A stretch of DNA of 64,000 bases from the human T2T-CHM13v2.0 reference genome, Homo sapiens: NCBI RefSeq assembly GCF_009914755.1, contig NC_060934.1, one strand, 5' to 3'. The notes below the pieces were generated by a model. The model saw only the letters and a program-made list of their open reading frames with translations. It had not been told where the DNA came from and did no database searches. The position numbers were made by a program, and so were the translations under genes. Of this stretch, positions 51,488 to 54,030 are shown one piece after another (within the stretch, counting starts at the first letter, position 1; each line of letters opens with the position of its first letter).

Positions 51488-54030
51488 GCAACACATCAAA
51501 AGCTTGTCTATTGTGATCAAGTAGGTTTTGTCCCTGGGATGCAAGGTTGGTTCAATATACAAATCAATAAATGTTATATAAGCAGAACTAGAGACAAACG
51601 ATATTATCTCAATAGATGATGCTTTTCATAAAATTTGACATCCCTTCACGTAAAAAACTCAAACTAGGTATTGAGAGAACATACCTCAGAATAAGAGCCA
51701 TCTATGACAAACCCATAGACAACATCATACTGAATGGGCAAAAGCTGGAAGCATTGCCCTTGAAAACTGGCAAGAGACAAGGATACCCTCTCTTACTACT
51801 CCTATTCAACATAGTTTTAGAAGTCCTGGACAGAACAATCAGGCAAGGGAATGAAAGGGCATCCAAGTAGGAAGAGAGGACGTCAAGCCACCCCCATTTG
51901 CAAACATGATCCTCTGTCTAGAAAACACCATAGTCTCAGCCCAAAAGCTCAAGTGGATAAATTTGAAAGTCTCAAAATACAAAAGATGTACAAGAGTCAC
52001 AGGCCTTCCTACATACCAACAGTCAAGCCAAGAGCCAAGTCAGGAATGTACTCCCATTCACAACTGCCACGAAAAGAATACAATACCTAGGAATACAGCT
52101 AACTAGGGAGGCAAGAGATCTCCACAAGGAAAGCTATAAAACACTGCTCAAAGAATTCAGATGACAAACAAGTAGAAGAATATTATATGCTCATGGATAG
52201 AAAGAATATCATTAAAATGGCCATATCACCCAAAGCAGTTCATAAATTCAGTATTATTCCTATTAGACTACCATTGAGATTTCAGACCTAGAAAAAACTT
52301 TTAAAATTCACATGGAACCAAGAGAGCCTGAATAGCCCAGGCAATTCTAAGCAAAAAGAACAAAGCTGGTGCCATCACGCTACCCAATTTTGAACTGTAC
52401 TACAGGGCTACAGTAACCAAAACAGCACGGTACTGGTATAAAACACAAATACAGCAATGGAACAGAACAGAGAACCCAGAAATAAGGCTTCACACCTACA
52501 ACTATCTGATCTTTAACCTGACAAGCAACAGGGAAAGGATTCCCTATTCAATAAATGGTGCTGGGATAATTGGTGGCTAGCCATATGTAGAAAATTGAAA
52601 CTGGACCCCCTCCTTGTACCATATACAAAAATCAACTGAAGATGGATTAGAGACTTAAGTGTAAAACTCAGGAACTGTAAGAATCCTGGAAGACAACCTA
52701 GGCAATACCATTCTAGACATAGGAACAGGCAAATGTCTCATGATAAAGATGCCAAAAGCAACTGCAACAAAAACAAAAATTGGTAAGTGGGATCTAACTA
52801 AACTAAAGAGTTTCTGCATAGTAAAAAACTGTCAGAGTAGCAGACAACCTATAGAATGGGAGAAGATATTTGCAAATTGTGCATCTGACAAAGATCTAAT
52901 ATCCAGCATCTATAAGGAACTTACACTTACATGAAAAACCCCATTAAAAAGTGGGCAAAGGGCTGGGTGCCGTGGCTCACACCTGTAATCCCAGCACTTT
53001 GGGAGGCCGAGTGGGTGAATCACCTGAGGTCAGGAGTTCAAGACTAGCCTGGCCAACATGGTGAAACCCCATCTCTACTAAAAATACAAAGAATTAGGCT
53101 GGCATGGTGGTGGGCACCTGTAATCCCAGCTACTCAGGAGGCTGAGGCAGGAGAATTGCTGGAACTCGGGTGGCAGAGGTTGCAGTGAACCAAGATTGCA
53201 CCATTGTACCCCAGCCTGAGTGACAAGAGCAAGACTCTATCTCAAAAAAGAAAAAAGTAGGCAAAGGACATGAACAGATACCTTTCAAAAGTAGACATAC
53301 ATGTGGCCAAAAAGCATAAGCTCAACATCACTGATCATTAGAGAAATGCAAATCAAAACCACAATGAGATGCTATCTCATACCAGTCAGAACAGCTATTA
53401 AAAAGTTAAAAAGATAACAGATGCTGGAAAGATTGTGGAGAAAAAGAATGCTTATACACTGTTGGGAGTGTGAATTAGTTCAGCCACTGTGGAAGACAGT
53501 GGCGATTCCTCAAAGGTCTAAAGACAAATACTATTCAACCCAGGAAACCCATTACCAGGTATAGACCCAGAGACATATAAGTCATTCTATCAAAGACACA
53601 TGCACATGTATGTTCACTGCAGCACTCTTCACAATAGCAAAGACACGAAATCCACTTAAATGACCAATGATAGACTGGATAAAGAGTGTGGTACATATAC
53701 ACCATGGAATACTAGGCAGCCACAAAAGAACAAGATCATGCTCTTTGCAGTAACATGGATGAGCTGGAGGCCATTATCCTTAGCAAATTCAGGAACAGAA
53801 GACCAGATACTGCATATTCACTTGTAAGTGGGAGCTAAATGAGGACACATGACACAGGGGAACACCACACACTGGGGCTTAATAGAGGGTGGGAGGAAGG
53901 AGAGGATCAGGTAAAAATAACTAACGGGTAGTAGGCTTAATACCTGGGTGACAAAATCTATATAAACCCCCATGACCCAAGTCTACCTATGTAACAAACC
54001 TGCACACATACCCCTGAACTTAAAGTGTTA
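51488..54030 (+). mobile_element. 5'-truncated L1PA13-16-like LINE (ORF2 RT region to 3'UTR) with many small deletions
   Basis: ORF remnants [27 protein letters not shown] and [16 protein letters not shown]. 3'UTR gagaggatcagg..ggcttaatacctgggtga..cccctgaactta is the same type as the 6.8-13.8 kb copy. Confidence 0.95.
52961..53251 (+). mobile_element. AluS (Sq/Sp-like) inserted in the L1
   Basis: Dimeric Alu with gacaagagc. TSD aaaaagtgggcaaag (52946-52960) / aaaaagtaggcaaag (53252-53266). Confidence 0.95.

What the first reader, a model, noticed from the sequence alone, without database searches (positions are those of the whole stretch)
51515..54021. Internal control: sister L1 inside the domain is about 100 nt shorter over about 2.3 kb through many 2-5 bp deletions
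Seen: between shared anchors (gatcaa ... cccctgaactt) the outside copy spans 6820-9226, or about 2305 nt without its insert. The inside copy spans 51515-54021, or about 2201 nt without the Alu and one TSD. Examples, outside versus inside: aaactctcaataaactagg vs aaactcaaactagg; agaataataagag vs agaataagag; cagagatgacacaaac vs cagatgacaaac; agaatcaatgtt vs agaatatc; tgacaaaaacaagc vs tgacaagc. Most remove one unit of a short repeat or microhomology. Established: this resembles the TOP1/ribonucleotide (ID4-type) transcription-associated signature. Caveat: the outside copy has some deletions too (for example about 18 nt near 8800), and equal age is assumed.
Basis: partly seen in the sequence, partly recalled or inferred. 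Interest (0 to 1): 0.75.

Follow-up and report, generated by a model that had tools for sequence, protein, structure and literature searches.

The report
Egg-cell piRNA locus erodes by deletion
An old LINE-1 copy in this human region has lost about eight times more 2-5-base pieces than its sister copies elsewhere, and the region matches a locus that egg cells transcribe heavily to make piRNAs, so intense transcription in the female germ line likely caused the deletions.

Summary
Confirmed, and stronger than reported. Against 37 same-subfamily L1 copies, the inside copy has 33-36 deletions of 2-5 bp in 2371 reference bases. That is 7.6-8.1 times the group rate, and the highest control reaches 6.3/kb against about 15/kb. 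The outside copy has 6, which is normal. One-base deletions and insertions are normal. Both copies fall in one subfamily group. Non-CpG divergence inside is only 1.3-fold higher, mostly a strand-symmetric 1.9-fold A>G/T>C excess. I placed it at about window 21,150-72,700 with a recalled offset. Old Alus here and old repeats in three other oocyte clusters also show excess short deletions, on small samples. Younger Alus are nearly spared. The deletions fit the germline TOP1-type signature in size and in repeat/microhomology context. The TNT motif does not separate them from control deletions, 2-bp events do not dominate, and no strand bias was seen, so TOP1 is likely but unproven. Ten literature searches found no report of this effect at oocyte clusters.

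The parts
51492..54025 (+). Inside L1 copy: 5'-truncated 3' 2.4 kb (end of ORF2 plus 3' UTR) of an older primate L1 (L1PA-type; subfamily name recalled, not checked against Dfam). It carries 35-36 deletions of 2-5 bp, six of 6-8 bp and a 1.9-fold A>G/T>C excess. It lies antisense to the piRNA precursor.
52961..53257 (+). Younger (AluS-like, label recalled) Alu inserted into the inside L1, with a ~16-nt target-site duplication; no 2-5 bp deletion
6820..9250 (-). Outside sister L1, compared segment (the element continues to about 12,400-13,800); 6 deletions of 2-5 bp, normal spectrum; 103-nt insert near 7558-7660
21150..64000 (-). Oocyte os-piRNA cluster hg38 chr10:71,133,522-71,185,094 (30-nt cluster 71,135,036-71,180,627). 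It maps to about window 21,150-72,700 (22,670-68,260) and runs past the window's right end.
   Evidence: hg38-to-T2T offset about 869,630, from the annotated UNC5B start and a recalled hg38 UNC5B start
28000..64000 (.). Compositionally eroded domain: TpA o/e 0.81-0.85 against 0.59-0.69 to the left, CTAG o/e about 1.5, A5+ runs o/e 1.1-1.3 against about 2; fades near 64-68 kb
44693..44965 (+). Old (AluJ-like) Alu with deletions of 3, 2, 2 and 7 bp
58968..59240 (-). Old (AluJ-like) Alu with deletions of 4, 4 and 3 bp
41625..41910 (+). Younger Alu with two short deletions (3 and 2 bp)
28054..28320 (-). Younger Alu with only the 2-bp gap that many control Alus share (subfamily-diagnostic)
27483..27700 (+). 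Partial younger Alu with no 2-5 bp deletion

Best explanation
The inside L1 has about eight times the normal load of 2-5 bp deletions and lies in a region matching a published oocyte piRNA cluster, and the likely cause is heavy precursor transcription in oocytes, with topoisomerase-1-type nicking and realignment at short repeats predicted to remove one repeat unit at a time. Shown: the deletion excess, its restriction to deletions of 2 bp and up, the same-subfamily control, the repeat/microhomology context, the A>G excess, and a similar excess in old Alus here and in old repeats of other oocyte clusters (small samples). From papers: the cluster, its minus-strand oocyte expression, and TOP1-linked 2-5 bp deletions in the germline. 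Inferred: that transcription is the cause, that it acts maternally, that TOP1 is the enzyme, and that most erosion predates the younger Alus. The last point would fit a once-per-generation process that ran faster per year in short-lived early primates.
For: (1) 2-5 bp deletions are up 7.6-8.1x, while 1-bp deletions (5 vs 4.8 expected) and insertions are normal. This argues against replication slippage or mismatch-repair loss (inference). (2) The size mix (13 of 35 are 2 bp) is near the 41% of germline de novo 2-5 bp deletions. (3) 28 of 35 are at repeats or microhomology vs 49% random; 27 of 35 carry TN*T on either strand vs 41% random. (4) The domain coincides with a minus-strand oocyte cluster of about 15,900 RPM, rank 8, with a macaque counterpart and no testis overlap listed, listed again in a later oocyte study. 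It is not among the 14 human chr10 rows of a testis piRNA gene table. (5) Old Alus: 10 deletions in 818 nt (this cluster plus the chr12 cluster) vs 1.1 expected, P 3e-7. (6) L1 in the chr6 cluster: 9-10 deletions vs 1-2 insertions in about 920 nt, P 0.006. Two younger L1s in a chr4 cluster differ by 9 indels of 2-5 bp vs 3.5 expected, P 0.01. (7) In human pedigrees, maternal point-mutation rate rises with oocyte expression.
Against: TN*T among repeat/microhomology deletions is 27 of 28 inside, 110 of 118 in controls and 84% at random, so it does not discriminate. [quoted passage not shown] The A>G excess is strand-symmetric (1.97x and 1.87x), unlike transcription-coupled asymmetry, and TOP1 does not explain it. 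Younger Alus carry 3 deletions in about 1300 nt vs 12 expected at 9x (P 0.002), although the cluster is highly expressed today. An old L1 relic at 17246-17466, about 4 kb outside the mapped cluster, has 5 such deletions in 221 nt. A 190-nt L1 fragment in the top-ranked chr4 cluster has none, and the chr4 and chr12 samples lack the TpA/CTAG shift. Control copy L005 (chr7) is 3x elevated with no matching cluster found. Only 27 kb of other clusters was sampled, and they were located with recalled hg38 gene positions.
Confidence: 0.5

Rival explanations
1. The cause is tied to the oocyte cluster but is not TOP1. Breaks or gaps in the open, transcribed domain of arrested or growing oocytes are repaired by error-prone end joining or translesion synthesis, giving short microhomology deletions plus A>G changes in A-runs.
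For: One error-prone repair route could give both signatures. A>G is highest next to A (5'-A 2.7x, 3'-A 2.9x) and symmetric. 6-8 bp deletions are also up (6 vs 1.3 expected). 7 of 35 deletions lack any microhomology.
Against: A>G changes do not cluster near the deletions (29 of 78 within 15 nt vs 442 of 1167 sites, P=1). Insertions are not raised. The sizes peak at 2-3 bp.
Confidence: 0.22
2. Long-lived meiotic recombination or double-strand-break activity over this domain caused both the deletion bias and a GC-biased substitution shift.
For: Short-deletion rate in repeats correlates with recombination in birds and humans (PMC3342960 abstract). Meiotic breaks are mutagenic for indels (PMC7615360 listing). 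Weak-to-strong substitutions are 1.84x.
Against: Strong-to-weak substitutions are not reduced (1.17x), though gene conversion predicts they would be. Deletions are spread evenly along the L1 (5-10 per 500 nt), and the compositional shift covers about 36 kb that match a transcription unit. PRDM9 hotspots are narrow and short-lived (recalled).
Confidence: 0.17
3. Selection, not mutation: deletions and A>G changes were favoured because they remove A/T runs or polyadenylation signals from a long precursor, or diversify piRNAs.
For: A-runs are depleted in the domain. Oocyte clusters evolve faster than their flanks (PMC10964541 passage).
Against: It would need about 40 separate fixations in a 2.4-kb dead L1 fragment in small primate populations (inference). 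Many deletions do not touch A-runs, and the A>G excess is the same on both strands.
Confidence: 0.07
4. Artefact: the inside copy is older, came from a pre-deleted source element, or the control set is biased.
For: Inside divergence is slightly above the group (0.113 vs 0.078-0.106). The controls are best BLAST hits.
Against: Same diagnostic group. Only 7 of 35 deletions are shared with any other copy, each with 1-4 of 55 copies. No close sister was found; best hits are 76-81% identical. 1-bp indels are normal, and the result holds under five gap-penalty settings and an HMM alignment.
Confidence: 0.04

Closest known systems
ID-TOP1 / COSMIC ID4 transcription-associated deletions (Reijns et al. 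2022, PMC8866115; passages and germline section read)
   Same: 2-5 bp deletions at short repeats and microhomology, with a T-spaced motif on one strand, in a transcribed germline region; the 2-bp share (37%) is near the germline de novo share (41%).
   Different: There the germline link was to male germ-cell expression across genes. Here it is a fixed excess of about 8x over tens of kb at an oocyte non-coding locus. 2-bp events do not dominate as in RNase H2-null tumours (82%), the motif is not enriched over control deletions, and an A>G excess accompanies it.
Human oocyte os-piRNA cluster chr10:71.13-71.19 Mb (Yang et al. 2019, PMC6662892; Human-Cluster150 in Hou et al. 2024, PMC10964541)
   Same: Same place (with a recalled offset), minus strand; the L1 lies antisense, as these papers report for TE-derived os-piRNAs; Hou et al. 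report low conservation of their two top clusters.
   Different: The passages and tables I saw give no indel spectrum or mutational cause.
Structural-variant hotspots at pachytene piRNA loci (PMC9925758; passages)
   Same: A high local mutation rate proposed as a driver of piRNA cluster divergence.
   Different: That work concerns testis loci and variants of 50 bp or more, not 2-5 bp deletions at oocyte loci.
Female-specific transcription-associated mutagenesis (PMC13439702; passages)
   Same: Oocyte expression predicts maternal mutation rate.
   Different: Gene-level mutation counts with small effects; the words 'indel' and 'piRNA' do not occur in its main text.
Recombination-linked deletion bias in repeats (Nam and Ellegren 2012, PMC3342960; abstract)
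   Same: Uses indels in transposable elements as a neutral record of deletion bias.
   Different: A broad-scale correlation, not a bounded domain matching a transcription unit.

Membership tests
ID-TOP1/ID4 signature | Excess confined to 2-5 bp deletions, other indels unchanged | tested here: met
   2-5 bp deletions 7.6-9.2x; 1-bp deletions and insertions 0.9-1.3x; 6-20 bp deletions also raised (6 vs 1.0-1.3)
ID-TOP1/ID4 signature | Located at short tandem repeats or microhomology | tested here: met
   28 of 35 vs 49% random and 118 of 176 control deletions
ID-TOP1/ID4 signature | TN*T motif enriched beyond repeat-matched expectation | tested here: inconclusive
   27 of 28 vs 84% random and 110 of 118 in controls; the A-rich L1 leaves little power
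ID-TOP1/ID4 signature | 2-bp deletions dominate (82% in RNase H2-null tumours) | tested here: not met
   13 of 35; matches the germline de novo share of 41% instead
ID-TOP1/ID4 signature | Bias to the non-transcribed strand (yeast reporter) | tested here: inconclusive
   18 A-only to 4 T-only, equal to the random ratio; low power
ID-TOP1/ID4 signature | Dependence on TOP1 and embedded ribonucleotides | not testable with these tools
   needs genetics or TOP1/ribonucleotide mapping in oocytes
Oocyte piRNA cluster | Dense uni-strand piRNA production in human oocytes at this locus | tested here: met
   Published tables: 15,900 RPM minus vs 317 plus, rank 8; placement uses a recalled hg38 offset; no reads were analysed here
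Testis (pachytene) piRNA cluster | Listed among human testis piRNA genes | tested here: not met
   None of 14 human chr10 rows lies between 46 and 79 Mb; the testis-overlap column is blank
Same L1 subfamily as the outside copy | Shared diagnostic substitutions and similar age | tested here: met
   Same cluster on 209 diagnostic columns; divergence 0.113 vs 0.086, group 0.078-0.106. No Dfam name assigned.
GC-biased gene conversion tract | Weak-to-strong up and strong-to-weak down | tested here: not met
   W>S 1.84x but S>W 1.17x

The most novel reading that the evidence does not exclude
Mammalian oocyte piRNA clusters are domain-wide maternal mutation hotspots. Their transcription in non-dividing oocytes raises 2-5 bp deletions about tenfold and doubles A>G, once per generation. 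This shrinks the loci, erases their memory of old transposons and explains their low conservation without selection. The signature could then map extinct oocyte clusters and date changes in generation time from a single genome.
Probability: 0.4. Interest if true: 0.85.

Novelty: new variant of a known kind. Interest (0 to 1): 0.7.

Why it matters
Oocyte piRNA clusters keep their positions across mammals while their sequences turn over fast, and the cause is open. A local, transcription-linked deletion process would give a neutral mechanism and extend TOP1-type germline mutagenesis from male germ cells to oocytes at a much larger effect size. It makes a sharp prediction that existing data can test: maternal excess of 2-5 bp deletions among rare and de novo variants in about ten known loci. 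It also warns that repeat ages, conservation scores and repeat masking are distorted in such domains.

Tried and rejected
Pachytene piRNA cluster: my first guess (10-q22-16903) lies at chr10:79.5 Mb, not here. BLAST span shrinkage of old repeats as a boundary map was not reliable. The L1 relic near 62 kb is about 9% shorter than its hits and the LTR-type repeat at 26.5-27 kb about 3%, but the outside control at 17.1-17.45 kb gave only three long hits, at 2-8%. An apparent L1 relic at 40.0-41.5 kb (judged by eye) found only itself and was not hit by the L1 profile. A pattern search for L1 3' ends lists only the first 100 of 845 hits and could not target clusters. Three papers read for an hg38 UNC5B coordinate gave none. 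Composition alone did not mark all cluster samples: the shift was present in chr6 and partly in one chr4 sample, absent in the other chr4 and the chr12 samples. Rows dropped before counting: of 60 loci, 2 were the window copies, 2 duplicates (L006, L007) and 2 rearranged (L017, L021), leaving 54; 17 younger-group copies were left out of the 37-copy comparison; Alu gaps at the shared diagnostic site and in the A-linker were excluded. The script stopped before its last block; the spectrum was recomputed. Genome-wide all-copy comparison, other primates and polymorphism data could not be examined.

Full report
Observation. The two L1 segments align over about 2240 columns at 15% mismatch. The outside copy is on the minus strand with a 103-nt insert. 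The inside copy is on the plus strand with an Alu and a ~16-nt target-site duplication.

Controls. I fetched the best genomic relatives of each copy (40 candidates scored in each, 30 loci cut from each). After dropping the two window copies, two duplicates and two rearranged loci, 54 copies (118 kb) remained. Against an internal majority reference of 2371 nt, the inside copy has 35 deletions of 2-5 bp (14.8/kb). The controls average 1.61/kb with a maximum of 6.3/kb, and the outside copy has 6. One-base deletions (5 vs 4.1 expected) and insertions are normal; deletions of 6-20 bp are 6 vs 1.0. Diagnostic columns split the set into an older group of 37, which holds both window copies, and a younger group of 17. 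Against the 37 the ratio is 7.6-8.1 under five gap settings, and a profile HMM gives 36 vs 6. Net shrinkage is 6.2% against 0.78% on average (max 1.85%). Leave-one-out divergence is 0.113 inside, 0.086 outside and 0.078-0.106 in the 14 nearest copies, so age cannot explain an eightfold difference. Only 7 of the 35 deletions recur in any other copy, so they were not inherited from a deleted source. The control set leans towards intact copies because it was chosen by BLAST score; the outside copy is free of that selection and behaves like them.

Spectrum. Sizes inside: 13 of 2 bp, 14 of 3, 6 of 4, 2 of 5. 28 of 35 lie at tandem repeats or microhomology (random 49%, controls 118 of 176), and 27 of 35 fit TN*T on one strand (random 41%, controls 110 of 176). 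Among repeat/microhomology events the motif share is 96% inside, 93% in controls and 84% at random, so it does not single out this copy. The strand ratio of the motif equals the random one. A second signature appears: A>G/T>C is 1.93x (66 vs 34, P 9e-7), equal on both strands, strongest beside A, absent in the outside copy, and not clustered with the deletions. It can account for the TAG/CTAG-rich, A-run-poor composition from about 28 kb rightwards (inference). Strong-to-weak changes are not reduced, which argues against plain GC-biased gene conversion.

What the domain is. It is not among the 14 human chr10 rows of a testis piRNA gene table (PMC7782496 supplement 6 searched). Supplements of Yang et al. 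2019 (PMC6662892; file 3 read whole, file 1 part 1 of 11, files searched, main-text passages) list the os-piRNA cluster hg38 chr10:71,133,522-71,185,094. It is minus strand, about 15,900 RPM, rank 8, with a macaque counterpart of rank 16, an overlapping 30-nt piRNA cluster and no testis overlap marked. Hou et al. 2024 (PMC10964541; passages and supplement search) list it again as Human-Cluster150. With the annotated T2T UNC5B start and a recalled hg38 start (offset about 869,630), it maps to about window 21,150-72,700. The inside L1 is then about 30 kb within it and antisense to the precursor, and the compared outside segment is 12 kb beyond its 3' end. I could not confirm the offset from a paper; an error of 10 kb would not change either placement.

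Other elements. Two old Alus in the domain carry 6 deletions of 2-5 bp plus one of 7 bp in 523 nt. Eleven old control Alus carry 4 in 2921 nt; the stricter alignment counted 5 in 728 nt for three domain Alus. Four younger Alus in the domain carry only 2 non-diagnostic deletions in about 1020 nt, and the one inside the L1 has none. I sampled 27 kb from four other top oocyte clusters. Three were placed by MOCS1, CCNG2 and TBX5 exons with recalled hg38 gene positions, and the chr4p one had no landmark. The chr6 sample has an older L1 with 9-10 deletions against 1-2 insertions in about 920 nt (P 0.006). In the chr12 sample, old Alu pieces have 4-5 deletions in 295 nt and a younger Alu has 1 in 258. 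In the chr4q sample, two younger L1s differ by 9 indels of 2-5 bp per 137 substitutions, about 2.6x, and one of them is under 1% shorter than its relatives. The chr4p sample has only a 190-nt L1 piece, with none. Pooled old Alus give 10 vs 1.1 expected (P 3e-7); pooled younger Alus give 3 vs 12 expected at a ninefold rate (P 0.002). Against a tidy boundary, an old L1 relic at 17246-17466 has 5 deletions in 221 nt, while the old relic at 1543-3198 has 10 deletions and 9 insertions in 1613 nt.

Mechanism. [quoted passage not shown] (PMC8866115; passages and section 14). Oocytes do not replicate while they transcribe the precursor (established knowledge), which fits the normal 1-bp slippage indels. 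Maternal mutation rates rise with oocyte expression (PMC13439702 passages). The sparing of younger Alus suggests that most erosion is old. A process that acts once per generation would have been faster per year in early primates (inference); Alu sequence or chromatin being resistant is the alternative. TOP1 is not shown: the motif test is inconclusive, the yeast strand bias (PMC4627074 abstract) is not seen, and the A>G excess needs another cause. The rivals are error-prone break or gap repair in the same domain (0.22), recombination (0.17; PMC3342960 abstract; PMC7615360 listing), selection (0.07) and artefact (0.04).

Novelty. The cluster, its class's fast evolution and germline TOP1 deletions are each in print. 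Large structural variants at testis piRNA loci are also described (PMC9925758 passages). Ten full-text searches, of which some aimed at this link, listed no paper that reports short-deletion excess at oocyte piRNA clusters. The library lacks most subscription papers, so this is not proof of absence. Verdict: a real, strong local mutational signature at a known oocyte piRNA locus; a new variant of a known kind; interest 0.7.

Noticed in passing
L061:2450-2600 (about window 66,450-66,600 if extended): GC-rich stretch near the cluster's upstream end with a GC box, two CAGCTG E-boxes and a TAATTG, motifs recalled as FIGLA- and NOBOX-type oocyte factor sites. The paired motif occurs in 2 of 65 loci. 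Possible minus-strand oocyte promoter; untested.
   Followed up: partly
L005 (G000:C7:78615651-78620118): Control L1 with 15 deletions of 2-5 bp (about 3x); all 12 at repeats or microhomology fit TN*T; a mild A>G excess next to A. No matching oocyte cluster was found by a rough table search. Could be another germline-transcribed site.
   Followed up: partly
window 7558-7660: 103-nt insert in the outside L1; about 24 nt match an L1 ORF2 stretch elsewhere in the element and the rest has no match among fetched loci. Looks like a templated repair insertion.
   Followed up: partly
window 46876-46959: Perfect 31-nt tandem repeat, 2.7 copies, probably a recent duplication inside the eroded domain.
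   Followed up: no
window 40040-41520: Looks by eye like a heavily eroded old L1 3' region, but a genome search found only itself and it is not masked. Only 13% of the window is masked, so repeat content in the domain may be under-called.
   Followed up: partly
window 4500-6700; 15750-16400; 23010-23380; 26470-26960: LTR-type repeats (MaLR-like internal part plus LTR, and solo LTRs; family labels recalled). Only the last was searched.
   Followed up: partly
L061:4358-4547: MER5A-like element (label recalled) of about 190 nt that looks unshortened, just past the 30-nt cluster's upstream end; it may mark the right edge of the eroded domain.
   Followed up: no
window 28001-66000 (Alus and L1 masked): A>T skew of +0.075 on the plus strand, the direction expected for long-term minus-strand germline transcription; left flank +0.04, right flank +0.015; no G/C skew.
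   Followed up: partly
L062:1-4520: Two adjacent 5' halves of younger L1s (5' UTR, ORF1, start of ORF2), both antisense to the plus-strand chr4 oocyte cluster.
   Followed up: partly
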